This document shows, in pieces, positions 3,657-29,286 of a stretch of 64,000 bases of DNA. Each line of letters begins with the position of its first letter. The first letter of the stretch is position 1. Location of the stretch: sequence record KX377933; one strand, given 5' to 3'. The stretch is from Escherichia phage vB_EcoM_Alf5. The notes below the pieces were generated by a model that had not been told where the DNA came from, did not search any database, and saw only the letters and a program-made list of their open reading frames with translations. Made by a program: the position numbers and the translations under genes.

Positions 3657-4205
3657 ATGAAGAAATTGATTCTAGGTTTGTGCTTAATGTTTACAGCACA
3701 CTTATCTTATGCAGTTGACTGCCCAGAGCTATCAATTAGCCAAAAAGTAAACATGTTAAAAGCTTACCAGTATGGTGAGAATAACATGGGTAAAGGTTGG
3801 GGTATCACTCTAGCTGCTATAGCCTTACAAGAGTCAGAGTTAGGTCTGAAGGTAGAGAATAAAAAGACACATGATTATGGTATCTTCCAGAATCACTTGA
3901 AGACTGTTGTAAAGCGTAACAAAATCAGTCCTAATGTGGCTAAAAAGAAACTCTTAAAAGATTTTGACTATGCTGCAAAGGAAACACACAAAGAGCTTGA
4001 ATTTTGGACTAAGGTACACGGTCAACCAAAGTCAAAGAAGACTTTACAAAAAGTTTTAGCATCATATAATGCTGGGTATTCATACAAAATTCCTAAAGCT
4101 AAGAAATACTCTCAAGATGTCTATAACAATATGAAAGTCATCGCTCAATGTGAATTTGCAACAAACATTTCTAAGGTAAATCATGAAAAAATTAAGAAAG
4201 TTTGA
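3657..4205 (+). CDS. lytic transglycosylase (SLT domain) with signal peptide
   Basis: N-terminal hydrophobic signal; ES (ALQESELGL), GIFQ and AYNAG-like (ASYNAGYSY) motifs of family 1 transglycosylases. Confidence 0.55.
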   Translation: MKKLILGLCLMFTAHLSYAVDCPELSISQKVNMLKAYQYGENNMGKGWGITLAAIALQESELGLKVENKKTHDYGIFQNHLKTVVKRNKISPNVAKKKLLKDFDYAAKETHKELEFWTKVHGQPKSKKTLQKVLASYNAGYSYKIPKAKKYSQDVYNNMKVIAQCEFATNISKVNHEKIKKV

Positions 4206-4878
4206 TGAAGTATTGTGCCATGCTTATGACTTACATCCTCATGAGTTAGGTCTTGATTCCTGTGTATGGACTCCAGAACAGTGCAGGGATTTTGAAGACA
4301 CCGCAAGAGAAGTTGTATGTTCACTTGAAGAGTTCCACACATCAGAACCAATTGTGAACGTTGTGGACAAAGAGACTGGGCAATCCATAGGTGTAAAACG
4401 TGATAGTTTAGTCATAGTCAACAAAGACCTTGTAGAGAAAGGTAATCTTATCTTAGCAGATATTGATGGAGTTCTTACAAATTTTAATCACGAAGATTGT
4501 TCAACGGAATTGACTGATGGTTCATTTTCACAGTACACTAATCTTCTTGACTCTGTAAGAGCAAAACCAACGTATGTTTTCAATATCATTGATGCAATTG
4601 CTAATCATGCTGCCGTTGGACTCTTGACAGCGAGAGGCGAATCTCAGAGAATACCTACTGAGATGTTTTTAAGGCATAACACAGAGCATGATTATATGCT
4701 TTTTATGCGTGGTTTTGGAACTAACTCTATAAGTGCAGAAAGTTTGAAAGTGAGGATGATTCAGTCTTGCATTCTGCCTTACTTTAATATAGTATGTTTT
4801 ATAGAAGATACAGAGAAGAATGTGCAGAAGGTGAATAGAATCCTTCCACACATCAAAACCATGTTAGTTAAACATTGA
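4183..4878 (+). CDS. hypothetical protein, possible HAD-like hydrolase
   Basis: 231-aa ORF; LILADIDGVLT resembles HAD motif I but lies ~95 aa from N-terminus; weak. Confidence 0.4.
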   Translation: MKKLRKFDEVLCHAYDLHPHELGLDSCVWTPEQCRDFEDTAREVVCSLEEFHTSEPIVNVVDKETGQSIGVKRDSLVIVNKDLVEKGNLILADIDGVLTNFNHEDCSTELTDGSFSQYTNLLDSVRAKPTYVFNIIDAIANHAAVGLLTARGESQRIPTEMFLRHNTEHDYMLFMRGFGTNSISAESLKVRMIQSCILPYFNIVCFIEDTEKNVQKVNRILPHIKTMLVKH

Positions 4879-5353: not shown

Positions 5354-5365
5354 GGTTAAGATACA

Positions 5366-5390
5366 GGCTCCTTCGGGAGCCTTTTTCATT
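5366..5390 (+). terminator. Rho-independent terminator
   Basis: GGCTCC-TTCG-GGAGCC hairpin followed by TTTTTCATTTT. Confidence 0.6.
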
Positions 5391-5405: not shown

Positions 5406-5753
5406 ATGACATTTAAAGAGTTCTGTCAAGCTACTTTCATAATTGTTTTCTTAGTTGGGGCAGGTGTCTGGGGAGGATATTCTTACAGAGACTATCAAGT
5501 TGCTGAAACTGAGCTAAACAATCAAAAGCTCATAAGTGTTGCTAAAGATGCTTATCAGGAAGGATTAGTCACACTGAGCACTAATTACAAAAATGATTTG
5601 AAAGATGTGCTTGCTAAGAATAAGCATACAAAAGAGGTGCTAACATATGAAAAAACTAAGCCAGAGTTTTATAATGTTTGTGTTACTGATAACTATGTCA
5701 GGGTGTTCAACGAACAAAGTGAACAGTACATTCAAAAACTCCCAAGTAAGTGA
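5406..5753 (+). CDS. i-spanin-like protein (N-terminal TM, periplasmic coiled region)
   Basis: 115-aa ORF with N-terminal hydrophobic helix FIIVFLVGAGVWGG; overlaps next ORF in another frame. Confidence 0.4.
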   Translation: MTFKEFCQATFIIVFLVGAGVWGGYSYRDYQVAETELNNQKLISVAKDAYQEGLVTLSTNYKNDLKDVLAKNKHTKEVLTYEKTKPEFYNVCVTDNYVRVFNEQSEQYIQKLPSK

Positions 5754-5916
5754 GAGTGATAAGTACACTCAAGAAGAATCACGGTATATTATCAAAGGTA
5801 ACACTGGCAGTGACGTAGCAGCAGCCCTTGAGTTCTATCGTGATGGCTTTTACCAGTGTACAATCAAAGCTAATAACCTTATTGATATGATTTTATTAGG
5901 GAATAAGCAGCAATGA
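5647..5916 (+). CDS. o-spanin-like lipoprotein (overlapped with i-spanin)
   Basis: 89-aa ORF; signal peptide with lipobox-like LITMSGC; starts inside the preceding ORF in a different frame. Confidence 0.4.
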   Translation: MKKLSQSFIMFVLLITMSGCSTNKVNSTFKNSQVSESDKYTQEESRYIIKGNTGSDVAAALEFYRDGFYQCTIKANNLIDMILLGNKQQ

Positions 5917-6182
5917 CAGAGAATGAAGATACTTTTTACGTAGAAGGTTACTTACTGTTACCACGACCAAAAGAAACTTATATGCGAATTGATTTCTTAC
6001 CAACCATTATGGATAATGTGATGTGCCATATCTTTATGCAAGGTGTCACATCACAACTTAAGCATGTTGGCAAAGAGTGCAAAATAAAGGTTGACACTCA
6101 TCCAGAAATCAAAGAAAATCACTACACATGGTTCTTACCAGACTCTAAAGAAATCTTAGCAGTTCTTAAAACGAGGAAGTAA
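5913..6182 (+). CDS. hypothetical protein
   Basis: 89-aa ORF, start overlaps stop of upstream gene (ATGA). Confidence 0.4.
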   Translation: MTENEDTFYVEGYLLLPRPKETYMRIDFLPTIMDNVMCHIFMQGVTSQLKHVGKECKIKVDTHPEIKENHYTWFLPDSKEILAVLKTRK

Positions 6183-6184
6183 CT

Positions 6185-6508
6185 ATGCAGATTAATGGAA
6201 GAGACTTTGTAGCCGTTTACTACGAGAAGGGTAAAGAGGTTGGTGTAGCACAAGTAACTTATGGTAATGGTAAGTGGTTATACGGAACAATAGCAGTAGT
6301 CGGAACAAGAAGTGATACAAAAACTTTTAAAGATTGTGTTGACCTTCTTGAAGAATCCATCCAGAATCATTGGTGTCTGATATGGATGACTGACGACGAA
6401 GTGAAGGAGCGTTTCAAAAAGATTGATATCAACATTGACAGTATTGAGCATGTTGATTTGTATGAACTAACCGAAAAGGTAAGCTATGAAAGCTCTAGAG
6501 GTAATTGA
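6185..6508 (+). CDS. hypothetical protein
   Basis: 107-aa ORF tightly packed in operon. Confidence 0.4.
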   Translation: MQINGRDFVAVYYEKGKEVGVAQVTYGNGKWLYGTIAVVGTRSDTKTFKDCVDLLEESIQNHWCLIWMTDDEVKERFKKIDINIDSIEHVDLYELTEKVSYESSRGN

Positions 6509-6713
6509 CAAAGATACTGGAGAAGTTACATCAGCATGTGTTTTCGTGAGCGATGACACAGTGATACCATTTTACAATCTTGATGGTTTTAGTTTTACAG
6601 GGATAACTCCAGAGGAATACTTTGAAGACCTCACCTTTGCCAGAATCTCTATAGACACATTCTATAAATGCTTCTATGATGAAGGTAAAGAATTACGAGA
6701 AACCGAACTATAA
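6486..6713 (+). CDS. hypothetical protein
   Basis: 75-aa ORF overlapping upstream stop. Confidence 0.35.
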   Translation: MKALEVIDKDTGEVTSACVFVSDDTVIPFYNLDGFSFTGITPEEYFEDLTFARISIDTFYKCFYDEGKELRETEL

Positions 6714-6724
6714 GGTGTATATTT

Positions 6725-6925
6725 ATGGCTGACTTCTGCAAAGACTGTGCTATCGAAATGTTCGGGCGTGATACAGGTGACTTAAAATGCCTTATCACTG
6801 AAGATGACTTCAAAGCTGGCTATGCAATGCCAGTAATCTGTGAAGGTTGTGGATGTATCTGGGTAGACCATGAAGGACAACGTGTAAAACCTTCAGAAGA
6901 TAAAGAATCTTGGGAGAGATGTTAA
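6725..6925 (+). CDS. Cys-rich zinc-ribbon protein
   Basis: 66 aa with CxxC...CxxCxC pattern (CKDC, CEGCGC). Confidence 0.4.
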   Translation: MADFCKDCAIEMFGRDTGDLKCLITEDDFKAGYAMPVICEGCGCIWVDHEGQRVKPSEDKESWERC

Positions 6926-7711
6926 ATGGGTATTGTAAAAATCATCAAAGGTGATATCTTTGACGCATTTGATAAAGGTAAATTTGATATCATTGGTCAT
7001 GGTTGCAACTGTATGAATTTCATGGGTGCAGGTATTGCAGCAACTATTTCTAAGCGTTATCCAAAAGTATATGATACTGATACAGAAGTTTACCTGTTTG
7101 CAGGTGGCATTCGCCACAAACCCTGTGAAAATTTACTAGGTAATTTTTCTGTAACACGTTTAAAGCAAGGTCGTATAGCTAACCTTTATACGCAACTTCA
7201 TACTGGTAAAGATGCCCGATACAGTGCTTTAGAGTCATCTTTGAAACAGCTTAACAGATACTGTGAAGTTAACCAGTTGAAGAAAGTTGGTCTACCTATG
7301 ATTGGTGCAGGTATCGGTGGACTCGACCCTCAAGCTGTCACAGTTATCATCAATCAGGTGATGAAGAGTGTAGATGTTTATCTTTATGTCTACGAAGCGG
7401 GAATGTACAATGAGTTACATTCAGGTTGGAAGAACTACTGTGAACCAGAATACTTTGCAGGCGTAGCTGTGTTCACAGACAATGCAGTTACCCTCTTCAG
7501 ACGAAGAAAAGGTAAGACACATCAAAGTAACCCTCCGGTTGAAAAGATGTCTCTGAGTAACGCTCTAGTTACCCACCTGTCGAAGAACAATCACAGGATT
7601 GCAGTGACATTTGGCAGTGATGCGGATACTTATATCTATGCAAGAACTGATGAGGATATCGAGTTAATCTTCTCTTCACCAGAGCTTACCTTCTTAGACG
7701 CAAAGAACTAA
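6926..7711 (+). CDS. macro-domain protein (TARG1/Poa1p-like ADP-ribose hydrolase fold) with C-terminal extension
   Basis: GDIFDAF...IIGHGCNCMNFMGAGIAATI and GLPMIGAGIGGLD match macro-domain signature segments. Confidence 0.6.
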   Translation: MGIVKIIKGDIFDAFDKGKFDIIGHGCNCMNFMGAGIAATISKRYPKVYDTDTEVYLFAGGIRHKPCENLLGNFSVTRLKQGRIANLYTQLHTGKDARYSALESSLKQLNRYCEVNQLKKVGLPMIGAGIGGLDPQAVTVIINQVMKSVDVYLYVYEAGMYNELHSGWKNYCEPEYFAGVAVFTDNAVTLFRRRKGKTHQSNPPVEKMSLSNALVTHLSKNNHRIAVTFGSDADTYIYARTDEDIELIFSSPELTFLDAKN

Positions 7712-7779
7712 GAAACTTCGTAGCATATTCACAATAGACTAAGCCTTTCTTATCTGGTAAATTTTTTCAGGTAAGGAGG

Positions 7780-7975
7780 GCTTTTTCATTTTAGAATTGT
7801 GCAGGTAGAGTTCTGTAGAGAAATCTGTAGAGAGGATTTTGAACTCCAAAGAGAAAATTCATTTTCAAACTGTGCAGGTAATCTCCAAAGAGCTTTTTCA
7901 TTTTCAAAACGTGCAGAGAAAAATCAGGTCGGGCAAGAAAAATCATTTGAGAATTGTGCAGGTAGGTGGGTGTAG
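7780..7975 (+). repeat. four direct copies of a ~24-bp motif TCATTTT-N6-TGTGCAGGTA
   Basis: ttcattttagaattgtgcaggtag, ttcattttcaaactgtgcaggtaat, ttcattttcaaaacgtgcagag, aatcatttgagaattgtgcaggtagg. Confidence 0.5.
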
Positions 7976-8143
7976 GTGGGGCTGTCGCCATTTCTCACAA
8001 GGCTACCACATCTGAAAATAAAAGTCAACATAAAAATTTGTAGCGGATTGAAAAATAATTCTTGATTGTAGTTCTGTTTTGTGGTAATCGCGCGCACACC
8101 CGTTTCATTACATTTTTGCCAAAAATATTTTTAAAAATTTTCA

Positions 8144-8172
8144 TTGACTCCTTGAACGGGTTTTTATAGTAT
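8144..8172 (+). promoter_or_regulatory. sigma70-like early promoter
   Basis: TTGACT, 17-bp spacer, TAGTAT; ~50 bp upstream of first cassette gene. Confidence 0.5.
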
Positions 8173-8225
8173 TTGCATCAGACAGGGCGACAAGCCCGAC
8201 AGCCTTAAACTAGGAGAACTTAAAA

Positions 8226-8432
8226 ATGCTATACGGTCGTGAATTGATGGTTACAACTAACGTTAACACAAAGGTAAAACGTTTTTACATGCAAATCTGT
8301 GGCGTATGGTCTAGAATATCAGAAGCTGACTATTGCAACTATGTAGAAACGGCAATCAACTCTGATTGCTACCTTACAAGAAATACAAGAAAGCACATAA
8401 GACAGATAGCAGTTTATTACTACGATATCTAA
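8226..8432 (+). CDS. hypothetical early protein
   Basis: 68-aa ORF preceded by conserved leader ccttaaactaggaga...aaaATG. Confidence 0.4.
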   Translation: MLYGRELMVTTNVNTKVKRFYMQICGVWSRISEADYCNYVETAINSDCYLTRNTRKHIRQIAVYYYDI

Positions 8433-8519
8433 TAAAGTACTTTACAGGGGGCTTAAAAGTTGATATCTTAAGCCCCAGATAAAGAGCTTTACCACTAAAT
8501 CCTAAATTGGAGAATCAAA

Positions 8520-18952: not shown

Positions 18953-19417
18953 TTACTTTGGATATACACTGTCAAGATAAATGTCAGTTTCCATTCTACG
19001 TCTGTTTTTCAGGCCGTTTGAAGTGACCTTCTTACCTTTGACTGTAACCTTGTTCCACCACTGCATAGCTTCTGCACAACCTACCTTGTCACCAGCATTA
19101 TGTCGCTTGATAAATGTAGAATCCTGCATAGCTGTGATACCGATGTTGTATGTTTCACTTACAAGTGCATCGAACTCATTCTGAGATGTTGGAACCTTGA
19201 TAGCTTTATTCACTGCTGCAACGAACTTCTCAACATCTGCAAGAAGATACTGTTCAGCCTGCTCAGCAGCAATTTTCATACCCATCTTAACAGGTTTTCC
19301 GTCAATACGGATTGTACCATACCCGATTGTTGGGATTCCGGCAGAGTCTTCGTAAGCCTCTAACTTCAGACCTTCAAAGAACTTAATAGCATCTAAGCCT
19401 TTTCTTGAGAGTTGCAT
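18953..19417 (-). CDS. T4-type lysozyme (glycoside hydrolase family 24)
   Basis: FEGLKLEAYEDSAGIPTIGYGT matches catalytic Glu/Asp/Thr region of GH24 lysozymes. Confidence 0.8.
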   Translation of the reverse strand: MQLSRKGLDAIKFFEGLKLEAYEDSAGIPTIGYGTIRIDGKPVKMGMKIAAEQAEQYLLADVEKFVAAVNKAIKVPTSQNEFDALVSETYNIGITAMQDSTFIKRHNAGDKVGCAEAMQWWNKVTVKGKKVTSNGLKNRRRMETDIYLDSVYPK

Positions 19418-20550
19418 TATGCCTCCCCTGCTGGGTTAACAGTAACTGTTGCTGCATTAGATGTTACAGAGCCACCTGCACCAGTAACTACACAGGCGTA
19501 GCTTCCTGCATCAGCAGTGGTTGCACCTTCTTTGGTGTAAGTTGCAGTAGTTGCATCGAGGATGTCTTCCTCCCCTTTCTTCCACTGATAACCTGTCGCA
19601 CCTGTTGCCGCAACATTCAGCGTTAAGGTCTCACCTTCATTAATTTCTTGATTGGTTGGCTGTTGAGTAATTACTGGAAGTGCGTTCACAGTTACTACAG
19701 CAGCATTAGATGTCACTGCACCACCCGCACCTGTTACAACGCAAGTATATGAACCTGCATCTGCTGGAAGCGCACCAGACTTGCTATAGGTAGCTTCTGT
19801 AGCCGAAGGAATGTCAGAACCATCTTTCTTCCACTGGTAACCTGTCGCACCTGTTGCAGTCACTTCCAAGTTAATGCTTCCACCCTCATTGACAGTCTGA
19901 CCAGAAGGCTGCTGTGTAATCACAGGCAGTGCATTAACAGTAACTGTTGCCACATCTGAGGTGACACTTGTTCCAGCCTCTCCAGATACAACACAAGTGT
20001 ATGAACCTGCATCAGAAGGTAATACAGACTGTTTTGTGTAGGTTGCAGAGGTGGCACTAGTGATATCCTCACCATCCTTTTTCCATTGATATCCAGTGGC
20101 ATTCGTTGCAACAACACTTAGGGTAAGCGTACCACCTTCATTTACTGTTTGATTGGTTGGCTGCTGAGTGATTGCTGGTGGCTTGATAGCATCCTTCAAC
20201 TTAGCATTCAACATTGAGAACGGCTTAACCCTTGCCAGCCATTCACAATAAATTGTATCAACGTCTTTACCATTGATAATTGCATATTGTAAGTCCATGA
20301 AGAAGTCAGAAGTTCTCATTTGAGCACCGATGCTGTAAAGCAACTCATCACTAAATGGAACTTTGTAGTCTGGTTTGTAGTCAAACTCCTCAACTTCTGC
20401 AATATCAGCTTCAGGCCAATACGAACTATAGGTAAGCGGTAAAATAGCCTCTTGATATGTTCTAAAATCATATCTCTTACCAGCTTTTACGTTTGCAATG
20501 AAGCCCTTCACAAACTCTTTGAAGTCTGGGTAAGTCTTTGCTTTAATCAT
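19417..20550 (-). CDS. protein with N-terminal domain plus three tandem Ig-like repeats
   Basis: three ~90-aa repeats of PVITQQP..QTVNEGG..TGYQWKKDG..DAGSYTCVV..VTVNA; stop overlaps lysozyme start. Confidence 0.6.
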   Translation of the reverse strand: MIKAKTYPDFKEFVKGFIANVKAGKRYDFRTYQEAILPLTYSSYWPEADIAEVEEFDYKPDYKVPFSDELLYSIGAQMRTSDFFMDLQYAIINGKDVDTIYCEWLARVKPFSMLNAKLKDAIKPPAITQQPTNQTVNEGGTLTLSVVATNATGYQWKKDGEDITSATSATYTKQSVLPSDAGSYTCVVSGEAGTSVTSDVATVTVNALPVITQQPSGQTVNEGGSINLEVTATGATGYQWKKDGSDIPSATEATYSKSGALPADAGSYTCVVTGAGGAVTSNAAVVTVNALPVITQQPTNQEINEGETLTLNVAATGATGYQWKKGEEDILDATTATYTKEGATTADAGSYACVVTGAGGSVTSNAATVTVNPAGEA

Positions 20551-22626: not shown

Positions 22627-24042
22627 ATGAGCGAGTTATTTAAACATGCACACCTTCATGCAGGTCGGACTGAAAATGGTGCTGTAAACCATACTTCATC
22701 AATGTCTGCTCTGGTAGACTTTTACAAAGCCGCTGGCTCAAGCCGTAGCAATGTAGAAATCTTACCAGACCTGTTCTACAAAGCTTTGCATGAGGATGTT
22801 GATGTTGCAGTTCGTATTTTACTGCATATGCGAGATGTACGAGAAGGTATGGGTGAGCGTAAAGCTTTCCGAACTGTTTTACTTCAAGCAATTGAAGATA
22901 AAGTTTTAGAGCCTACACAGGTTCTTCGCATTATGGATAAGATTGCAGAACTTGGTCGTTTTGATGACTTCAAAATCTTCGTAGGTACTCGTTTCGAGAC
23001 GGATGCCTTCAAACATTTAGAGGCAGCATTACTAGACCCTGCAACAGCAGGTTTGGCAGCTAAGTGGTTACCACGAGTCAAACCACGTCATAAGCAGTTT
23101 GTAAAACGTTTCTGCAAGTTTGCCAACTTGAGTGAGAAAGAGTACCGCACACTGTTATCTGCACTGTCTGATACGGTTGAGCAAAAAATCTCTGCTAATG
23201 AGTTTGGTAAGATTGACTACAGCAAGATTCCTTCACTCGCTGCTGCACGTTACCAAAAGCTCTTTAACCGCAAAGATGGAGAACGTTACAAAGCTTACAT
23301 CGAATCACTCTCAAAGGGTGAGTCTAAGATTAACGCTGGTGCTGTTTATCCATACGATGTGATTAAGTCTATCAAGCATGGTAATGCAGATGTTGCCAAT
23401 GAGCAGTGGAAAGCACTACCAAACTGGATGGCAGAAGGTGAGAACATCTTGTGTATGACTGATGTTTCAAGCTCAATGTCTTGGGTGAATCTTGGTTCAA
23501 TCACTGCCCTTGATATTGGTGTATCACTTGCCTTGTATGTAGCAGAACGCAATACAGGTTGCTTTAAGGATGAGTTGATGGTTTATTCAACAAACCCTCA
23601 CTTCATTGAACTGAGTGGTGATTTACGAAACCGTCATCGTCAGGTGATGCGACACGTTGAATATGGCTCAACTAACTTACAGGCAGCTTTTGACCGCATT
23701 CTTGAGGTAGGTAAAAGAAACAACTTGACTCAGAAAGATATGCCAAGTAAGCTTATCATCTTCTCTGATATGGAGTTCAATCAGGTTGATGGAGCTAATG
23801 GTCGTACAAACTTTGAAGCAATTCAGAGTAAGTACAAAAAAGCTGGATATGAGATGCCACAACTGGTATTCTGGTACTTAGCAAACCGTAATGGTACTTG
23901 CGAAGTGTCTGTTAAGGATAACGGTGTAGCAATGGTATCTGGTTTCTCTCCAGCCACTTTAAAAGCTTTGCTTGGTGGTGAGAAGTTTGACCCAATCAGT
24001 GTAATGCTCAAAGCAGTAATGATTGACCGTTACATCTGGTAA
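22627..24042 (+). CDS. Ro60/Rsr-like protein (TROVE-like N-terminal region plus vWA domain with MIDAS)
   Basis: 471 aa; LCMTDVSSSM (DxSxS), downstream GSTNL and IIFSDMEF fit a vWA MIDAS; ERKAFRTVL resembles Ro60 TROVE as recalled. Confidence 0.55.
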   Translation: MSELFKHAHLHAGRTENGAVNHTSSMSALVDFYKAAGSSRSNVEILPDLFYKALHEDVDVAVRILLHMRDVREGMGERKAFRTVLLQAIEDKVLEPTQVLRIMDKIAELGRFDDFKIFVGTRFETDAFKHLEAALLDPATAGLAAKWLPRVKPRHKQFVKRFCKFANLSEKEYRTLLSALSDTVEQKISANEFGKIDYSKIPSLAAARYQKLFNRKDGERYKAYIESLSKGESKINAGAVYPYDVIKSIKHGNADVANEQWKALPNWMAEGENILCMTDVSSSMSWVNLGSITALDIGVSLALYVAERNTGCFKDELMVYSTNPHFIELSGDLRNRHRQVMRHVEYGSTNLQAAFDRILEVGKRNNLTQKDMPSKLIIFSDMEFNQVDGANGRTNFEAIQSKYKKAGYEMPQLVFWYLANRNGTCEVSVKDNGVAMVSGFSPATLKALLGGEKFDPISVMLKAVMIDRYIW

Positions 24043-24207: not shown

Positions 24208-24284
24208 CTCTGTTTAGCTCAGCTTGGTAGAGCGTTCCGTTTGGGGCGGTAAGGCCGGAGGTTCAAGTCCTCCAACAGAGACCA
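24208..24284 (+). tRNA. tRNA, anticodon TGG (Pro)
   Basis: 7-bp acceptor ctctgtt/aacagag, D-stem gctc/gagc, T-arm ggagg-ttcaagt-cctcc, encoded CCA. Confidence 0.55.
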
Positions 24285-24291
24285 AATTAAT

Positions 24292-24369
24292 GTTCCAGTA
24301 GACAAAATGGTAAAGTCACCACTCTTTCAAAGTGGATATTTGAGGGTTCAAATCCCTTCTGGAACGCCA
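24292..24369 (+). tRNA. tRNA, anticodon TTC (Glu)
   Basis: acceptor gttccag/ctggaac, anticodon arm ccact-ctttcaa-agtgg, T-loop ttcaaat, CCA. Confidence 0.6.
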
Positions 24370-24375
24370 GTTTTG

Positions 24376-24452
24376 ACAGAAGACCAATTACAGCAAACTT
24401 AATCTACTCATCTGACACGAAATCGGACAAAGAAGATATTTGGTCTGGTCAT
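24376..24452 (+). ncRNA. repeat module A: conserved stem-forming motif pair
   Basis: agaccaa (24381-87) pairs with ttggtct (24440-46); shared flanks acagaagacc and ggtctggt. Confidence 0.35.
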
Positions 24453-24459
24453 TAAGAAT

Positions 24460-24536
24460 TGCGGGTATAGAGAAAGGGCGTCTCACATGTCTCATTAGCA
24501 TGGTATCGGCAGGTTCGACTCCTGCACCCGCCTCCA
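24460..24536 (+). tRNA. tRNA, anticodon CAT (Met)
   Basis: D-stem gaga/tctc, anticodon arm catgt-ctcatta-gcatg, T-arm gcagg-ttcgact-cctgc; 1:72 appears unpaired. Confidence 0.5.
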
Positions 24537-24541
24537 AATTT

Positions 24542-24610
24542 ACAGAAGACCGTTTACAGCAATATTTATTAAATTTTTAGCGGAAAAATTGAAAGATACG
24601 GTCTGGTAAT
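24542..24610 (+). ncRNA. repeat module B
   Basis: agaccgt (24547-53) pairs with acggtct (24598-604); same acagaagacc...ttacagcaa / ggtctggt flanks. Confidence 0.35.
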
Positions 24611-24619
24611 ACTAAACAT

Positions 24620-24696
24620 GGTTAGGAAGCACATAAGGTATGTGCGGTCGCCTGTTAAGCGAATGGCACAGGGTTCGAATCCCTGACTAACCGCCA
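24620..24696 (+). tRNA. tRNA, anticodon GTT (Asn)
   Basis: D-stem gcac/gtgc, anticodon loop ctgttaa, T-arm caggg-ttcgaat-ccctg, CCA. Confidence 0.55.
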
Positions 24697-24765
24697 AATT
24701 TAGGAGAGAAGCGATTGCTCACCGATTTGTAAGGTGCAAGTCCTTAGCCTGAATAGAAATTAAAT

Positions 24766-24853
24766 GTGTCGTTATCCCGTAGATGGTAGCGGTGGGGACT
24801 GTAAATCCCTTGTCATTGAGACTCGGTAGGTTCGACTCCTACACGGCACACCA
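24766..24853 (+). tRNA. tRNA, anticodon GTA (Tyr), long variable arm
   Basis: acceptor gtgtcgt/acggcac, anticodon loop ctgtaaa, 15-nt variable arm, T-arm gtagg-ttcgact-cctac. Confidence 0.6.
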
Positions 24854-24858
24854 ATAAA

Positions 24859-24936
24859 GGTTATGTAGTTTAATTTGGTTAAAATACTCCCCTGTCACGG
24901 GAGATGATGAGGGTTCAAATCCCTTCGTAGCCGCCA
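24859..24936 (+). tRNA. tRNA, anticodon GTC (Asp)
   Basis: anticodon arm ctccc-ctgtcac-gggag, T-loop ttcaaat, CCA. Confidence 0.6.
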
Positions 24937-24963
24937 ATTTTGAGAGGACTATTTAGCCCCTCC

Positions 24964-24995
24964 CTTAAAGAGTTCTTACGAGTATTCTTTAAAGG
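24964..24995 (+). promoter_or_regulatory. hairpin with conserved loop GTTCTTACGAGTAT
   Basis: cttaaagag-gttcttacgagtat-tctttaaag; a second copy with the same loop occurs at 28346-28377. Confidence 0.4.
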
Positions 24996-24996
24996 A

Positions 24997-25072
24997 GCAG
25001 AAGACCAAATTCAGCAAGAACGTATGAAATTTCAAGCCAATTTAATTTTGAAAATTTAAACTTGGTCTGGCT
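24997..25072 (+). ncRNA. repeat module C
   Basis: agaccaa (25002-08) pairs with ttggtct (25062-68); degenerate copy of modules A/B. Confidence 0.3.
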
Positions 25073-25081
25073 CAACAAATT

Positions 25082-25218
25082 TACAGAAGACCGTTTACAG
25101 CAAAACTTAAACAATCTATTTCTCCGGTAAAGAAAAGGCGAAGGTTCGATTCCTTCACTCGGCAGATGTCGAGTTGGTGTAATGGTAGCACTTAAGATGA
25201 TAAACAACGGTCTGGTAA
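25082..25218 (+). ncRNA. candidate Y RNA-like ncRNA with permuted tRNA-like domain
   Basis: 8-bp stem agaccgtt (25088-95) / aacggtct (25206-13) encloses T-arm gaagg-ttcgatt-ccttc, hairpin actcggc-agat-gtcgagt and D-arm gtgt-aatggta-gcac. Confidence 0.45.
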
Positions 25219-25358
25219 TTATCTTTGTAGATAAGTTATTAAGCTTACCTGTGAGTATGCGACCACAAAGGGTGAAAGGGTAAATTCTAGATTTAAACCC
25301 AAAAAGGCACATCGCTACAGACCTTAAGCAAGTCTGGGTAGCTTATCTACAAAGATAA
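25219..25358 (+). repeat. 17-bp perfect inverted repeat enclosing ~105 nt
   Basis: ttatctttgtagataag (25219-35) and cttatctacaaagataa (25342-58) are exact reverse complements. Confidence 0.6.
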
Positions 25359-25364
25359 TTTAAT

Positions 25365-25440
25365 GGAAGTGTAGCAGAATGGTGATGCGGCAGACTTTTA
25401 ATCTGACAGGCGATGGGTTCGAATCCCTCCACTTCTACCA
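25365..25440 (+). tRNA. tRNA, anticodon TTT (Lys)
   Basis: acceptor ggaagtg/cacttct, anticodon arm (g)caga-cttttaa-tctg, T-loop ttcgaat, CCA. Confidence 0.5.
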
Positions 25441-25444
25441 ATAT

Positions 25445-25521
25445 GGTTCAGTCGCAGATAAGGTAATGCAAGGGTCTCATAAGCCCTATGAATGTGGGTT
25501 CGATTCCCATCTGAACCTCCA
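25445..25521 (+). tRNA. tRNA, anticodon CAT (Met or Ile2)
   Basis: acceptor ggttcag/ctgaacc, anticodon arm agggt-ctcataa-gccct, T-loop ttcgatt, CCA. Confidence 0.5.
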
Positions 25522-25598
25522 AGCTGGTATAGTTAAGAAGGTTATAACACTCCCCTGATAAGGGAACATCGGTGGTTCGATTCCACCTACCAGTACCA
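25522..25598 (+). tRNA. tRNA, anticodon GAT (Ile)
   Basis: D-stem gtta/taac, anticodon loop ctgataa, T-arm ggtgg-ttcgatt-ccacc, CCA. Confidence 0.55.
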
Positions 25599-25606
25599 AT
25601 TTCAAT

Positions 25607-25645
25607 AAAGTTGTTGACATTGAGATGTGACTACTTTATAGTAAC
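25607..25645 (+). promoter_or_regulatory. sigma70-like promoter inside tRNA island
   Basis: aaagTTGTTGACA, 17-bp spacer, TATAGT. Confidence 0.45.
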
Positions 25646-25846
25646 CTTAGTTTTCGTTGCGTAGCGTCTATTTTGCAAATTTAAAATAAATGCAAACGAC
25701 AATGTTTTTCTGGCAGTAGCTTGATAGGCTAAACACCAGTGAGGTCTTCCAATCCCTCATCAAAGAATTTGGCGTACTAGCCCACGGTATGATTAATAAG
25801 GTGGGCATCTTTAAGGGCTTTCTAAGAGAGTCTTTAAAGATAATTA

Positions 25847-25928
25847 CGGGGCGTATCTCAGCGGTCTTCTAAACCGCCGTTAACCGAGTAAGTGGAGTAT
25901 GCGGGTTCGAGTCCTGCCGCCTCGACCA
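25847..25928 (+). tRNA. atypical tRNA-like element, anticodon-like loop TCT (Arg?)
   Basis: 7-bp acceptor cggggcg/cgcctcg and T-arm present, perfect hairpin gcggt-cttctaa-accgc, but no canonical D-arm; 23 nt before T-arm. Confidence 0.3.
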
Positions 25929-25942
25929 ATTTTGGAGAAATC

Positions 25943-26290
25943 ATGAAAACTTGTATTAGGTGCAAACTTAGCAAGGATGAAAATGATTTCTACATGAAAG
26001 ATGGTAGGAGGACTCATTCATACTGTAAAAAGTGTGTTAATGAGCAAACCATAGAAAGACAAAGAGCACTTAAACTCTCAGCTATTGAGTACAAAGGTGG
26101 GGTTTGTCATGATTGTGGTAAAAAGTATCATCCAGCAGTGTATGACTTCCATCATTTGAATCCTTCAGATAAAGATTTTAACATTGGTCATAGGAAAAGC
26201 CTTAAGTTCTCTCAAGAACTAAAAGATGAACTTGACAAATGTGTTTTGCTATGTTCAAATTGCCATAGGGTAAGACATGCAAAGTATTAG
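25943..26290 (+). CDS. HNH homing endonuclease
   Basis: CxxC...HHLNPSDKDFNIGH...CSNCH motifs; ATG at 25943 with GGAG RBS; track start 25892 lies inside the tRNA-like element. Confidence 0.65.
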   Translation: MKTCIRCKLSKDENDFYMKDGRRTHSYCKKCVNEQTIERQRALKLSAIEYKGGVCHDCGKKYHPAVYDFHHLNPSDKDFNIGHRKSLKFSQELKDELDKCVLLCSNCHRVRHAKY

Positions 26291-26427
26291 TTAGCAGATT
26301 ACTTAGACGACCTTAGCGGGTCTTCCTGTAGGGAGGTGGTCTGTATCTCATGTTTTCCAGAACATGTAAATAATCTGAGAAGGGGCTTTACAGTGTTGAG
26401 ATAATACGGTAAGCTTCGAATTATAGT

Positions 26428-26510
26428 ATGGGACGATGTTAAGACTCTAAGGCATGAGCAACGGCCTCCAAAACCGTTTCAAAGGGGTTCAACTCCTCCG
26501 TCCCATGCCA
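26428..26510 (+). tRNA. atypical tRNA, anticodon CCA (Trp?) with ~7 extra nt between acceptor and D-arm
   Basis: perfect acceptor atgggac/gtcccat, anticodon arm acggc-ctccaaa-accgt, T-loop ttcaact, CCA. Confidence 0.4.
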
Positions 26511-26523
26511 AAGTCTTATTAGG

Positions 26524-26611
26524 GGTAGGTAGCGGCTAATGGTAGCCAAACTGTCTTGAAAACAGTTGCCACTGTAGAGATACGGTGAGGGTTCGACTCC
26601 TTTACTTACCG
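26524..26611 (+). tRNA. tRNA, anticodon TGA (Ser), long variable arm
   Basis: anticodon arm actgt-cttgaaa-acagt, ~20-nt variable arm, T-arm gaggg-ttcgact-ccttt; no encoded CCA. Confidence 0.55.
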
Positions 26612-26868
26612 CCTAATAAGATTTAAAGCCAAGCTTCATTCGGATGTCGCTTTGGTATCCCGCGTGTATTGTCGTACACACTGATAAAACACCTAGTAGG
26701 TGTCACGGAGAAGAGATAATATCAAGCTCTCCAAAGGTTCTAGTCACCGGATTAAACAAGACTATGCAAAGACCTTTTTAGGTCTTTTTAGAGGGCTTCT
26801 AAGGTTATTACAGCTTGTTGTGGAACCTTGTTGCTTAGGTTCTTAGAAGTTCTCTAAAAAGATTTAAT

Positions 26869-26946
26869 GGGAGATTGACGGTAATTGGTAAACCTACCAT
26901 CCTTAGAAGTTGGTGTTTGAGGGTTCGAATCCCTTGTCTCCTACCA
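26869..26946 (+). tRNA. class-I tRNA, anticodon TAG (Leu by anticodon)
   Basis: acceptor gggagat/gtctcct, anticodon arm ccatc-cttagaa-gttgg, 5-nt variable loop, T-loop ttcgaat, A73, CCA. Confidence 0.45.
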
Positions 26947-26953
26947 AATTAAT

Positions 26954-27029
26954 GCAGGTGTAGCAAAATGGTTATGCGGCTGACTCTTAATCAGTAAGAC
27001 GACGGGTTCAATTCCCTCCACCTGTACCA
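26954..27029 (+). tRNA. tRNA, anticodon CTT (Lys)
   Basis: anticodon arm (g)ctga-ctcttaa-tcag(t), T-loop ttcaatt, CCA. Confidence 0.5.
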
Positions 27030-27034
27030 AAAAT

Positions 27035-27110
27035 GGGGTCATAGTTTATATGGTTAAAATTCGAGTTTTGCAAACTTGGGAACTGAGTTCAATTCTCAGT
27101 GACTCCACCA
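27035..27110 (+). tRNA. tRNA, anticodon TGC (Ala)
   Basis: acceptor ggggtca/tgactcc, anticodon arm cgagt-tttgcaa-acttg, T-arm ctgag-ttcaatt-ctcag, CCA. Confidence 0.6.
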
Positions 27111-27116
27111 ATTAGT

Positions 27117-27191
27117 GCATCCATAGTTTAAACGGGAAAATTACAGTCTTCCAAACTGAGGTTGAGGGTTCGATTCCCTCTGGATGCTCCA
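27117..27191 (+). tRNA. tRNA, anticodon TCC (Gly)
   Basis: perfect acceptor gcatcca/tggatgc, anticodon loop cttccaa, T-arm gaggg-ttcgatt-ccctc, CCA. Confidence 0.55.
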
Positions 27192-27197
27192 AATTAA

Positions 27198-27274
27198 TGC
27201 TCCTATCGTATAATCGGCTATTACGGTTGCCTTGTAAGCAACTTATCAGGGTTCGAATCCTTGTGGGAGCACCA
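27198..27274 (+). tRNA. tRNA, anticodon TGT (Thr)
   Basis: anticodon arm gttgc-cttgtaa-gcaac, T-loop ttcgaat, CCA. Confidence 0.6.
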
Positions 27275-27275
27275 A

Positions 27276-27368
27276 TTCAGAGGTCAAGTGAAAGACCGCT
27301 GGTGTCAACTGAAGACCGTAACAAATTCCACGGAGTTGAGTTAGCGGCACAACTTCAGACCTCTTTCA
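27276..27368 (+). ncRNA. structured non-tRNA spacer with paired repeat segments
   Basis: agaggtc/gacctct and ctgaag/cttcag complementarities; two GAAGACCG motifs. Confidence 0.3.
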
Positions 27369-27369
27369 C

Positions 27370-27444
27370 ACTCGCTTAGTTTATATGGTAAAACATCACC
27401 CTTACAAGATGAAGAAAAAGGTTCAAGTCCTTTAGTGAGTACCA
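27370..27444 (+). tRNA. tRNA, anticodon TAC (Val)
   Basis: D-stem gttt/aaac, anticodon arm tcacc-cttacaa-gatga (one mismatch), T-arm aaagg-ttcaagt-ccttt, CCA. Confidence 0.55.
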
Positions 27445-27445
27445 T

Positions 27446-27523
27446 GTTCCAGTATCCCAATTGGCAGAGGATGCAAGCTCAAACCTTGTATTAGTGACGG
27501 TTCGAATCCGTCTTGGAACACCA
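27446..27523 (+). tRNA. class-I tRNA, anticodon CAA (Leu by anticodon)
   Basis: acceptor gttccag/ttggaac, anticodon arm gcaag-ctcaaac-cttgt, short variable loop, T-arm gacgg-ttcgaat-ccgtc, A73, CCA. Confidence 0.5.
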
Positions 27524-27541
27524 ATTTAAAGAGGCTATTTA

Positions 27542-28099
27542 ATGAGATATTTGAAGTACGCTTCATGGATTTTCTTAGCTTTACTAGACCCAATTGCAGC
27601 AATCCTAGCAGTTATTTTAGCACCTTTCGTAGTTCCATTCTACAGTGAGAAGAAAGGACATCTACCTTTTGGATTCAGATGGATGGAGACATATGACAAC
27701 CCAATTGATGGTGATGAAGGTCACGTTAAAAGATGGGCTAAGATTAGAAAGATTGGTAAGCTGGGTGTCTACATGCAGAGAGTCGGATGGCTCTGGAGAA
27801 ACAAAGCTTATAACTTCTCTTACCATGTATTAGGAAGAGATGTAAAAGATGTTACTAAGTGGAAAGGTAATATCAACGTAAGTTCTGACCCCGAAGATAA
27901 TCAGACAGGTTATCTCCTAATGTGGAACAACAATGCTTGGGGATTATTCGCTTTTATTCCGTCAATTAAAGTCTTTGGTAAACAGTTTTACTGGAGAATT
28001 TATGTTGGATGGAAACTAAAAAGTGTTGTCCCAGAAGAAAGAGCATTCTCAAGGGAAAGAGTTATGTTGGCATTCTTTATTCATCCACTGAGAAAGTAA
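27542..28099 (+). CDS. hypothetical membrane protein inside tRNA island
   Basis: 185-aa ORF; N-terminal hydrophobic segment IFLALLDPIAAILAVILAPFVVPF; Trp-rich; AGAGG RBS. Confidence 0.5.
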   Translation: MRYLKYASWIFLALLDPIAAILAVILAPFVVPFYSEKKGHLPFGFRWMETYDNPIDGDEGHVKRWAKIRKIGKLGVYMQRVGWLWRNKAYNFSYHVLGRDVKDVTKWKGNINVSSDPEDNQTGYLLMWNNNAWGLFAFIPSIKVFGKQFYWRIYVGWKLKSVVPEERAFSRERVMLAFFIHPLRK

Positions 28100-28107
28100 A
28101 GATTTAA

Positions 28108-28183
28108 AGGGGATTAGTTTACAAGGTTAAAACCTCGGTCTTTGAAATCGAAGAAGTTGGTTCAATTCCAACATCCCCCGCCA
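28108..28183 (+). tRNA. tRNA, anticodon TTG (Gln)
   Basis: D-stem gttt/aaac, anticodon arm tcggt-ctttgaa-atcga, T-arm gttgg-ttcaatt-ccaac, CCA; 1:72 A-C mismatch. Confidence 0.55.
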
Positions 28184-28185
28184 AT

Positions 28186-28264: not shown

Positions 28265-28269
28265 ATTTT

Positions 28270-28452: not shown

Positions 28453-28457
28453 ATTTA

Positions 28458-28534: not shown

Positions 28535-28550
28535 ATTTCAAAGGTGCTTA

Positions 28551-29285: not shown

Positions 29286-29286
29286 C

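What the first reader, a model, noticed from the sequence alone, without database searches (positions are those of the whole stretch)
6926..7711. Macro-domain protein in the early region: candidate anti-ADP-ribosylation factor
The N-terminal ~170 aa carry macro-domain signatures of the TARG1/Poa1p type (GDIF...HGCNCMNFMGAGIA...LPMIGAGIGG), the same fold as DarG antitoxins that remove ADP-ribose from DNA. An early phage macro domain could reverse host ADP-ribosylation defences such as DarT-type toxins.
Basis: partly seen in the sequence, partly recalled or inferred. Interest (0 to 1): 0.55.

Follow-up and report, generated by a model that had tools for sequence, protein, structure and literature searches.

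The report
Two-domain phage macrodomain counter-defence enzyme
This is a real, conserved gene of a FelixO1-type phage encoding an ADP-ribose-processing macrodomain, related to two phage anti-defence enzymes described in 2025-26, fused to a tail domain of unknown fold; it is a sensible candidate counter-defence gene but not a new kind of one.

Summary
The ORF at 6926-7711 (+), 261 aa, is real and carries a bona fide macrodomain at residues ~1-157: Pfam Macro above its gathering score, DarG-profile hits near 1e-14, and an AlphaFold model matching TARG1, Poa1p and DarG.

The window is a Felixounavirus. About 255 of 257 related phage records carry this gene.

The macrodomain belongs to one phage family with two characterised members:
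- T4 Tk.4/AdfM, required for resistance to DarTG2.
- The NARP1-operon phosphatase Adpp, an ADPR-1''-phosphate phosphatase that counters aRES.

The window protein is slightly nearer Tk.4: 34% versus 30% identity, with shared NLYTQ and G-I-G loop motifs. It lacks the G-L-A-G-G signature found in all nine NARP1-adjacent members examined. The whole family, T4 AdfM included, lacks the catalytic lysine of TARG1 and DarG.

- A roughly 100-aa C-terminal domain found only in Ounavirinae, with no sequence or fold relative.
- Two allele classes, 39% identical, swapped precisely at the start codon between otherwise ~95% identical genomes.
- Felixounaviruses carry NARP1 7.8 kb upstream.

Most likely function: removal of ADP-ribose from DarT2-modified DNA. 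The close rival is ADPR-1''-phosphate phosphatase feeding NARP1. "Early" expression is untested.

The parts
6926..7711 (+). CDS of the 261-aa two-domain macrodomain protein. Orthologue of FelixO1 NP_944801 and of Bas63 bas63_0095 ('putative phosphatase').
   Evidence: ORF. 91% identical to bas63_0095. Present in ~255 phage records. dN/dS well below 1.
6926..7396 (+). Macrodomain, residues 1-157. Family-invariant residues: H25-G-C-N28-C, M33-G-A-G36-I-A, N86-L-Y-T-Q90, P124-x-I-G-A-G129.
   Evidence: Pfam, PHROG and PDB hits. DarG HMMs. AF2 model plus Foldseek. Invariant columns in alignments A2 and A4.
7397..7708 (+). C-terminal domain, residues 158-261. One helix, then 6-7 beta strands and a C-terminal helix. 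Contains a basic hairpin, RRRKGK. Restricted to Ounavirinae, and the fold has no detected relative.
6912..6918 (+). Shine-Dalgarno-like GGGAGAG, 7 nt before the ATG. It lies inside the end of the upstream ORF.
   Evidence: Read directly from the sequence.
6725..6925 (+). Upstream 66-aa acidic ORF with 7 Cys (CxxC...CxxC). Its TAA stop abuts the macro ATG. It sits immediately before the macro gene in Felixounavirus and Mooglevirus, but not in the Pectobacterium relatives. Membership of a functional unit with the macro gene is not shown.
   Evidence: PHROG_2210, unknown function. No Pfam hit.
7741..7792 (+). Intrinsic terminator closing the transcription unit: a 17-bp stem followed by UUUUCAUUUU.
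   Evidence: RNA fold of -24.9 kcal/mol, z=-5.6. Annotated as a terminator in phage Barry.
5365..5392 (+). Upstream terminator that marks the likely start of the unit (5406-7711) in which the macro gene is the last gene.
   Evidence: Terminator scan. Barry annotation.

Best explanation
The gene encodes a counter-defence enzyme of the phage Tk.4(AdfM)/Adpp macrodomain family, which is Poa1p-like.

Proposed mechanism:
- The N-terminal macrodomain binds the ADP-ribose moiety through its two glycine-rich loops and hydrolyses the substituent on ribose C1''.
- The most likely physiological substrate is ADP-ribosyl-thymidine placed on single-stranded phage DNA by DarT2-type host toxins. The protein would then act like T4 AdfM and like the macro half of the DarG antitoxin, restoring replication.
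- The chemistry is probably Poa1p/MacroD-like, using conserved His25 and Asn28, rather than the lysine mechanism of TARG1 and DarG.
- The lineage-specific, faster-evolving C-terminal domain is inferred to be a targeting or partner-binding module.

What is shown: the fold, family membership, conserved site residues, conservation across the lineage, and purifying selection. What is inferred: the substrate, the in vivo role, the expression timing and the role of the C-terminal domain.
For: Macro fold and ADP-ribose-site motifs are present.

The closest non-Ounavirinae relatives are Tk.4 orthologues, recognised by synteny next to the vs gene: 39% identity to Serratia phage CHI14 and 34-36% to T4 and RB9. 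T4 tk.4 knockout sensitises T4 to DarTG2.

The active-site-proximal motifs NLYTQ and G-I-G are shared with all 11 Tk.4-syntenic proteins.

Scores against the NCBIfam DarG macro profile:
- Ounavirinae proteins: 52-57 bits.
- T4 AdfM: 30 bits.
- NARP1-adjacent proteins: 27-37 bits.

Asn28 aligns with PhiKZ AdfM Asn23, whose mutation reduces de-ADP-ribosylation of DarT2-modified DNA.

The gene is near-universal in the lineage: ~255 records against 257 with rIIB.

There are two allele classes only 39% identical, exchanged exactly at gene boundaries within ~95% identical flanks. I read this pattern as fitting an arms-race gene; that is my inference.
Against: - No biochemical activity has been shown for any Tk.4-type protein. 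The T4 evidence is genetic only.
- Identity to T4 AdfM is only 34%.
- The TARG1/DarG catalytic Lys is Gln90, and TARG1 Asp125 is Gly131.
- Adpp-type relatives are nearly as close (30%, 62 bits against 82 bits), and the deep phylogeny is unresolved, with bootstraps of 20% or less.
- The phage lineage carries NARP1, which gives the phosphatase function an obvious use.
- I found no report on Felixounavirus sensitivity to DarTG2.
Confidence: 0.45

Rival explanations
1. It is an Adpp-type enzyme: an ADP-ribose-1''-phosphate phosphatase. It would convert the ADPR-1P made by RES-domain NAD+ phosphorylases (the aRES defence) into ADPR. The phage's own NARP1 enzymes (Adps plus Namat) would then rebuild NAD+ from that ADPR. 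This would be a 'split' NARP1-AP pathway, with the phosphatase encoded 7.8 kb from the operon.
For: - It belongs to the same family as the NARP1-operon macro proteins: 30% identity and E=8e-17 to Vibrio phage Thalassa gp184, which lies between Adps and Namat.
- Adpp from Vibrio phage Gary is a proven ADPR-1P phosphatase and is Poa1p-like.
- Poa1p is a top structural match (E=1.9e-10), and Poa1p His23 aligns with His25.
- Felixounaviruses carry NARP1. It was discovered in the Felixounavirus Bas63, whose macro orthologue is 91% identical to the window protein and lies 15 genes downstream on the same strand.
- NARP1 alone fails against aRES, and aRES occurs in E. coli, Klebsiella and Enterobacter.
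Against: - The gene is not in or next to the NARP1 operon.
- All nine NARP1-adjacent macros examined share G-L-A-G-G (L130, A131) and a non-Leu residue at position 87. All 12 distinct Ounavirinae sequences examined have L87/I130/G131, the Tk.4 pattern. Fisher test of 9/9 against 12/41 other family members gives p=1.2e-4.
- Sequence similarity to Adpp-type proteins is lower than to Tk.4.
- None of the other family members has, or needs, a 100-aa extra domain.
Confidence: 0.27
2. It reverses ADP-ribosylation of a different macromolecule, or degrades an ADP-ribose-derived signal. Candidates are RNA or protein ADP-ribosylation by other host toxins, O-acetyl-ADP-ribose, or Thoeris-type cyclic ADPR signals. 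The C-terminal domain would confer that specificity.
For: - Macrodomains of this class act on many C1''/C2''-linked substrates, and viral specificities are largely unmapped (review PMC9503650).
- Public annotations vary: 'O-acetyl-ADP-ribose deacetylase', 'phosphatase', 'high-affinity ADP-ribose binding module'.
- The unique C-terminal domain and the allele dimorphism fit a lineage-specific target.
Against: No direct evidence points to any of these substrates. Both characterised relatives point to DNA-ADPr or ADPR-1P. No ADP-ribosyltransferase was found in the window ORFs that I scanned, though only part of the window's ORFs were scanned.
Confidence: 0.15
3. It is a non-catalytic ADP-ribose binder: a sponge or sensor. 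It would sequester ADPR-type molecules, or bind ADP-ribosylated targets, without hydrolysis.
For: The catalytic Lys and Asp of TARG1 and DarG are absent. Some macrodomains are readers only.
Against: - His25, Asn28 and the NLYTQ motif are invariant across 28 family members, including the functional T4 AdfM, and H25, N28 and Q90 also in the Adpp orthologue.
- Gary Adpp, from the same family, is an active enzyme.
- The macro part is under strong purifying selection (dN/dS 0.12).
Confidence: 0.05

Closest known systems
T4 Tk.4 = AdfM (anti-DarT factor Macrodomain; HIDEN-SEQ preprint, bioRxiv 10.1101/2025.11.20.689424)
   Same: Same macrodomain subfamily: 34-35% identity, E=5e-24. Shared invariant HGCNC, MGAGIA, NLYTQ and PxIGAG motifs, and both have Gln in place of the TARG1/DarG lysine. 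Both sit among small non-structural genes of a lytic myovirus.
   Different: T4 AdfM is a stand-alone 155-aa protein, while this one has an extra ~100-aa C-terminal domain. The macro part is basic (pI 9.0) against acidic Tk.4 orthologues (median 5.6). The anti-DarTG2 role has been tested only in T4.
Adpp, the macrodomain ADPR-1''-phosphate phosphatase of NARP1-AP (Vibrio phage Gary gp137; orthologue Thalassa gp184; bioRxiv 10.64898/2026.01.28.702374)
   Same: Same family: 30% identity, E=8e-17. Poa1p-like fold. The host phage lineage also encodes Adps and Namat.
   Different: Adpp lies between Adps and Namat, whereas this gene is 7.8 kb and 15 genes away. This protein lacks the G-L-A-G-G loop and the small residue at position 87 shared by all nine NARP1-adjacent proteins. 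It has an added C-terminal domain.
DarG antitoxin (macro plus C-terminal DarT-binding domain) and the DarG-like PhiKZ gp104 AdfM (PMC13309987)
   Same: Macro fold, with Foldseek matches to Taq and Mtb DarG at E~3e-10 to 1e-9. DarG profiles give the only match above the reporting threshold in PADLOC and NCBIfam. Two-domain layout with macro at the N-terminus. Asn28 is equivalent to PhiKZ Asn23.
   Different: - Scores 54.5 bits against the equivalog cutoff of 250. Only profile positions 2-150 of 338 match, and the C-terminal domain does not match the DarT-binding half.
- The catalytic Lys motif FPTKxxWR is replaced by NLYTQ.
- No darT neighbour.
- PhiKZ gp104 is a true DarG relative (E=9e-25 to Mtb DarG). 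It is only 24.5% identical to this protein, at 29 bits.
Human TARG1/OARD1 and yeast Poa1p
   Same: Best solved-structure matches: TARG1 4j5s at E=1.6e-10 with TMt 0.85, and Poa1p 6lfr at E=1.9e-10. The H-x-C-N-C motif is shared with Poa1p.
   Different: TARG1 Lys84 and Asp125 correspond to Gln90 and Gly131. Poa1p Ser30 corresponds to Phe32. Sequence identity is only 23-25%. These are cellular proteins, not phage proteins.

Membership tests
Macro domain superfamily (Pfam PF01661) | Profile match above the curated gathering score | tested here: met
   30.6 bits against 22, E=3.5e-7, profile positions 2-117 of 118.
Macro domain superfamily (Pfam PF01661) | Macro alpha/beta fold with glycine-rich ADP-ribose-binding loops | tested here: met
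   AF2 model with pLDDT 91. Foldseek TM 0.78-0.87 to TARG1, Poa1p and DarG. The G34-A-G36 and G127-A-G129 loops are invariant.
TARG1/DarG-type ADP-ribosyl hydrolases (lysine mechanism) | Catalytic lysine (TARG1 K84, DarG K80 motif FPTK) and, for TARG1, Asp125 | tested here: not met
   In the alignments K84 corresponds to Gln90 and D125 to Gly131. Gln90 is invariant in the subfamily. The residue numbers for TARG1 and DarG come from my own knowledge.
DarG antitoxin (NCBIfam NF048014, equivalog) | Full-length profile score above the curated cutoff, including the C-terminal DarT-binding domain | tested here: not met
   54.5 bits against a cutoff of 250. Only profile positions 2-150 of 338 are matched. 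PADLOC DarG matches positions 5-146 of 329.
DarG antitoxin (NCBIfam NF048014, equivalog) | Encoded next to a darT toxin gene | tested here: not met
   The neighbours are small phage ORFs, spanins and rIIA/B. No DarT-like gene appears in the unit.
AdfM, T4 Tk.4 type | Sequence homology and shared subfamily motifs with T4 Tk.4 | tested here: met
   35% identity over 161 columns, E=5e-24. NLYTQ, HGCNC and G-I-G/A are shared with all 11 Tk.4-syntenic proteins.
AdfM, T4 Tk.4 type | Stand-alone ~150-160-aa macrodomain protein | tested here: not met
   261 aa, with an additional domain at residues 158-261. All non-Ounavirinae family members in 79 IMG/VR loci are 145-175 aa, apart from a few start-codon artefacts.
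AdfM, T4 Tk.4 type | Required for phage growth on DarTG2 hosts, and removes ADP-ribose from DarT2-modified DNA | not testable with these tools
   Needs plaque assays and enzymology. I found no published data for Felixounavirus.
Adpp / NARP1-AP | Homology to NARP1-operon macrodomain proteins | tested here: met
   30% identity, 62 bits, E=8e-17 to Thalassa gp184.
Adpp / NARP1-AP | Gene located within or adjacent to the Adps-Namat operon (within two genes in the defining study) | tested here: not met
   In Bas63 the orthologue is gene 95 against NARP1 genes 79-80, 7.8 kb apart on the same strand. In the window, the genes flanking the macro ORF and the larger ORFs that I scanned gave no Adps or Namat hit. 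In relatives NARP1 lies beyond the window's end.
Adpp / NARP1-AP | Loop signature common to NARP1-adjacent members (L130-A131 'GLAGG', non-Leu at position 87). This is an empirical signature found here, not a published criterion. | tested here: not met
   9 of 9 NARP1-adjacent proteins have it. 12 of 12 Ounavirinae sequences have L87/I130/G131. Fisher p=1.2e-4 against other family members.
Adpp / NARP1-AP | ADPR-1''-phosphate phosphatase activity | not testable with these tools
   Needs an LC-MS assay as in bioRxiv 10.64898/2026.01.28.702374.

The most novel reading that the evidence does not exclude
The Ounavirinae protein is a phage-built functional analogue of the complete DarG antitoxin, or more generally a two-module ADP-ribosyl-toxin neutraliser.
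- The macrodomain would erase the modification.
- The orphan, fast-evolving, possibly PH-like C-terminal domain would bind the host toxin, or single-stranded DNA.
- The two sharply distinct allele classes circulating in otherwise near-identical Felixounaviruses would be matched to different host toxin variants.

A further unexcluded twist is that the same enzyme also dephosphorylates ADPR-1P. That would link DNA repair of ADP-ribosylation to the phage's NARP1 NAD+ recycling.
Probability: 0.12. Interest if true: 0.65.

Novelty: new variant of a known kind. Interest (0 to 1): 0.4.

Why it matters
Phage macrodomains are very common: 41% of myoviruses carry one (PMC9503650). Only two functions have been pinned down, both in 2025-26 preprints or papers.

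This lineage is a good test case for three reasons:
- It includes Bas63, the phage in which NARP1 was discovered and for which a published Cas13a deletion method exists.
- It has both a NARP1 pathway and a core macrodomain gene located away from that pathway.
- It carries natural allele replacements and an extra domain.

A handful of plaque assays would show whether one macrodomain family serves anti-DarT, anti-aRES or both. They would also show what the added domain contributes. For annotation, the current database labels for this gene ('phosphatase', 'O-acetyl-ADP-ribose deacetylase', 'hypothetical') are inherited guesses.

Tried and rejected
**1. Relatives of the C-terminal domain.** None of these searches found a usable relative.
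- phmmer against 1.84 billion representatives gave only orthologues, plus a 1072-aa repeat protein (P0030). I reject P0030 as a compositional or repeat artefact: a 28-residue stretch matched six times.
- Foldseek against BFVD found only the SUSP2 orthologue.
- The afdb50 fold library was unavailable.

**2. Phylogeny to choose between AdfM and Adpp.**
- The tree was neighbour-joining on 75 sequences with 200 bootstraps.
- Ounavirinae are monophyletic (78%), but deeper nodes have 20% support or less, so the tree does not discriminate.
- A first attempt with Biopython timed out.

**3. Net charge as a proxy for DNA binding.** Uninformative: Tk.4 orthologues are acidic, and the Ounavirinae and Adpp types are mixed or basic.

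**4. DarG-profile score.** All family members hit the profile, so it does not separate AdfM from Adpp types. Ounavirinae proteins simply score about 20 bits higher.

**5. Promoter scan for expression timing.** No clear promoter lies just upstream of the unit, and the number of sigma-70-like hits is not above the shuffled expectation.

**6. Literature search for Felixounavirus expression timing.** Badly targeted; it returned nothing relevant. The search for Bas63 with DarTG returned no papers.

**7. Antisense ORF at 6893-7117 (-).** Rejected: it lies inside the conserved + strand frame, which is under purifying selection.

Full report
**What is there**

Window 6926-7711 (+) is an ATG-to-TAA ORF of 261 aa. 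It has a GGGAGAG ribosome-binding site 7 nt upstream. Its ATG directly abuts the TAA of a 66-aa Cys-rich ORF.

The macrodomain assignment rests on several independent results:
- Pfam Macro matches above its gathering score: 30.6 against 22 bits, E=3.5e-7.
- PHROG_335, labelled 'phosphatase', matches at E=1.6e-112.
- phmmer against PDB sequences finds TARG1 (2e-6), DarG (3.8e-5) and Poa1p.
- The PADLOC and NCBIfam DarG profiles match the macro half at about 1e-14. The score is 54.5 bits against an equivalog cutoff of 250, and the C-terminal DarT-binding half of the profile is not matched.
- An AlphaFold2 model built on 28 homologues is confident (pLDDT 91, pTM 0.88).
- Its best solved-structure matches are TARG1, Poa1p and the Thermus and Mycobacterium DarG macrodomains, at E~1e-10 with TM 0.78-0.87 on the target.

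The macro domain ends at about residue 157.

**Whose gene it is**

The window is a Felixounavirus (FelixO1-like myovirus).
- The 6000-8500 segment is 92-93% identical to many E. coli, Salmonella and Shigella phages.
- The window begins with rIIA and rIIB, as in phage Barry.
- It carries a 24-tRNA array and the usual structural and replication genes.

The two-domain protein is present in about 255 phage records: 242 at 60% identity or more to this allele, plus 13 of a second allele. rIIB at 60% identity or more is present in 257 records. The gene is therefore effectively a core gene of this lineage. Public records label it 'hypothetical', 'phosphatase', 'O-acetyl-ADP-ribose deacetylase' or 'Macro domain, Poa1p_like'.

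**Transcription unit**

The gene is the last in a co-directional unit. The unit is bounded by a terminator at 5365-5382 and by a strong hairpin plus U-run at 7741-7792 (-24.9 kcal/mol, z=-5.6).

The same unit starts with genes annotated as i- and o-spanin in relatives. No convincing promoter was found, and I found no expression data. The 'early' label is therefore plausible but untested.

**Which family, and what is known about it**

Outside the Ounavirinae, the best hits are Tk.4 orthologues of T4-like phages, recognisable by their position next to the vs gene. Identity to T4 Tk.4 is 35%, E=5e-24.
- A November 2025 preprint showed that tk.4 is the single T4 gene depleted on a DarTG2 host.
- It also showed that a clean knockout sensitises T4 to DarTG2. 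The gene was named adfM.
- Enzymatic removal of ADP-ribose from DNA was proposed but not shown.

A different phage macrodomain, PhiKZ gp104, was independently named AdfM.
- It does remove DarT2-installed ADP-ribose from DNA in vitro.
- It is a true DarG relative (E=9e-25 to Mtb DarG, FPTKxxWR lysine motif).
- It is only 24.5% identical, at 29 bits, to the window protein.

A second characterised relative emerged from the NARP1 literature.
- In about 15% of NARP1 operons a Poa1p-like macrodomain, Adpp, sits between Adps and Namat.
- The Vibrio phage Gary enzyme converts ADPR-1''-phosphate to ADPR. This lets NARP1 overcome the RES-domain NAD+ phosphorylase defence aRES.
- Vibrio phage Thalassa gp184 is an Adpp orthologue by synteny. 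It is 30% identical to the window protein (62 bits) and 34% identical to T4 Tk.4.

T4 AdfM, Adpp and the window protein therefore belong to one family. Shared invariant residues are H25, N28, C29, M33, G36, A38, N86, Y88, Q90, P124, G127 and G129.

**Active site**

In the alignments, the catalytic Lys84 and Asp125 of TARG1 correspond to Gln90 and Gly131. The lysine position is the same one as the DarG lysine. Gln90 is invariant throughout the subfamily, including the functional T4 AdfM and the active Adpp lineage. The lysine mechanism of TARG1 and DarG therefore does not apply.

Conserved His25 aligns with Poa1p His23. Asn28 aligns with PhiKZ Asn23, whose mutation lowers activity. A Poa1p/MacroD-like, water-mediated cleavage at C1'' is the most reasonable inference. 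Both known substrates of the family, N3-thymidine-ADPr and ADPR-1''-phosphate, are C1''-linked, so one site could in principle serve both.

**Discriminating the two candidate functions**

I collected 79 family loci from IMG/VR with 6-kb flanks and classified them by neighbouring genes:

| Context | Loci |
|---|---|
| Ounavirinae (rIIB nearby) | 14 |
| Tk.4-syntenic (vs, tk, regB nearby) | 10 |
| NARP1-adjacent (Adps or Namat within 6 kb) | 9 |
| Unknown | the rest |

- **Tree.** A neighbour-joining tree of 75 sequences with 200 bootstraps gives a monophyletic Ounavirinae clade (78%) but no resolved deeper structure. NARP1-adjacent proteins are scattered in at least four places. Phylogeny does not decide.
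- **Column analysis.** This is more informative. All nine NARP1-adjacent proteins, including Thalassa gp184, have L130-A131 (G-L-A-G-G) and a non-leucine residue at position 87. All 12 distinct Ounavirinae sequences and all 11 Tk.4-syntenic sequences (10 loci plus T4 itself) have L87 and I130 (NLYTQ; G-I-G/A). The comparison of 9/9 against 12/41 other family members gives p=1.2e-4.
- **DarG macro profile.** Ounavirinae proteins score about 20 bits higher than either T4 AdfM or the NARP1-adjacent proteins.

These results tilt toward the AdfM/DarG-like reading, but they are correlative.

Evidence on the other side:
- Felixounaviruses do carry NARP1 (VpaE1).
- NARP1 was in fact discovered in the Felixounavirus Bas63.
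- Bas63 gene 95 is 91% identical to the window protein. It lies 7.8 kb and 15 genes downstream of NARP1 genes 79-80, on the same strand.

**The C-terminal domain**

Residues 158-261 form a helix followed by 6-7 beta strands and a terminal helix.
- Only Ounavirinae proteins have this domain. Other family members are 145-175 aa.
- The topology, and several weak hits, suggest a PH-like sandwich. This is not established.
- The domain is under purifying selection but evolves faster than the macro part: dN/dS 0.2-0.45 against 0.12-0.15. Identity to Mooglevirus is 49% for this domain against 76% for the macro part.
- It does not match the DarT-binding half of DarG profiles.

Its role is inferred only; a targeting or partner-binding module seems most likely.

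**Allelic replacement**

A Felixounavirus contig, L003, has the same eleven-gene order as the window. Its ten upstream proteins are 90-99.5% identical to the window's, but its macro protein (P0009) is only 39% identical.
- DNA identity is about 95% up to the macro start codon (~6930).
- It is about 50% across 6930-7900.
- It is 85-90% again from about 7900.

Thirteen GenBank Felixounaviruses carry this second allele at 95% identity or more, with nothing intermediate. Both alleles keep the two-domain architecture and the invariant macro residues. Such cassette-like exchange at gene boundaries looks to me like the pattern expected of genes in host-phage conflict; that reading is my inference. 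It fits a counter-defence role without saying which one.

**Verdict**

It is only partly supported here: the DarG/TARG1 chemistry is not conserved, an equally characterised alternative function exists in the same family, the 'early' label is untested, and 40% of the protein was overlooked.

| Reading | Weight |
|---|---|
| Anti-DarT2-type DNA de-ADP-ribosylase | 0.45 |
| ADPR-1P phosphatase feeding NARP1 | 0.27 |
| Other ADP-ribose substrates | 0.15 |
| Non-catalytic binder | 0.05 |

Dual activity is not excluded. In kind this is a variant of a recently described class, the phage macrodomain counter-defence enzymes. It is distinguished by an orphan fused domain and by allele dimorphism. Interest is moderate.

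Noticed in passing
window 6930-7900; L003:5001-5780; 13 phage records: The macro gene exists as two discrete allele classes, 39% aa identical overall (macro part 50%, C-terminal part 24%), in otherwise ~95% identical Felixounaviruses. The recombination boundaries fall at the start codon and about 190 nt after the stop. No intermediate alleles were found.
   Followed up: yes
window 6725-6925 (+): A 66-aa acidic (pI 4.4) ORF with 7 Cys and a conserved CxxC...CxxC pattern, zinc-ribbon-like. Its stop codon abuts the macro ATG. It is conserved immediately upstream in Felixounavirus and Mooglevirus but absent from the Pectobacterium relatives. PHROG_2210, unknown function; no Pfam hit.
   Followed up: partly
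window 7795-7964 and 8144-8172: The ~500-nt non-coding stretch after the macro terminator holds three direct copies of AAYTGTGCAGGTA, at 7795, 7868 and 7952. Two of them (7795 and 7868) are preceded by TTTTCATTTT-like runs. A sigma-70-like promoter (TTGACT-17-TAGTAT) then precedes the next gene at 8226. With up to two mismatches the motif count in the whole window (6) is not clearly above chance: 2 of 100 shuffles reach it.
   Followed up: partly
window 5406-5753 and 5695-5916 (+); 3657-4205 (+): The transcription unit containing the macro gene begins with an overlapping pair annotated as i-spanin and o-spanin in relatives (JK55, Bas63). An upstream ORF has a weak SLT transglycosylase hit (E=0.0012, below the gathering score).
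   Followed up: partly
window 4183-4878 (+): A 231-aa ORF annotated 'polynucleotide kinase' in Bas63. It has a HAD-type DxDGV motif (ADIDGVLTN) but no Pfam hit at E<=0.01. The Pectobacterium phage counterpart has only a weak HAD_PNKP hit. It is probably a HAD-family phosphatase rather than a full PNK.
   Followed up: partly
outside the window; L005:24652-27829 (VpaE1) and L091:1747-4455 (Bas63): Relatives carry the NARP1 pair (Adps, annotated ribose-phosphate pyrophosphokinase, and Namat, annotated nicotinamide phosphoribosyltransferase) just upstream of rIIA on the same strand. In this phage NARP1 should therefore lie beyond the window's right end, or before its left end, about 7.8 kb from the macro gene on the replicating genome.
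   Followed up: partly
window 24208-29459 (+): An array of 24 tRNA genes interspersed with DUF7338 and DUF7217 ORFs, directly upstream of the terminase large subunit (29889-31505).
   Followed up: no
window 19417-20550 (-) and 22627-24042 (+): A 377-aa protein with three immunoglobulin-like domains (Pfam Ig_3 E=2.7e-32), and a 471-aa DUF2828/DUF7788 protein, both among the small-ORF region.
   Followed up: no
one search hit list (MG065664.1; one Staphylococcus-named record): Records named 'Campylobacter phage A132' (92.9% identity over 2.5 kb) and one 'Staphylococcus' phage match this Felixounavirus segment. They look like host misassignments or contaminants in the public records.
   Followed up: no
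The name AdfM is used in the literature for two macrodomain lineages that are only distantly related. One is T4 Tk.4, which is Poa1p-like and has Gln at the lysine position. The other is PhiKZ gp104, which is DarG-like and has the lysine motif. BLASTP aligns them over only 23 residues (E=0.033).
   Followed up: yes
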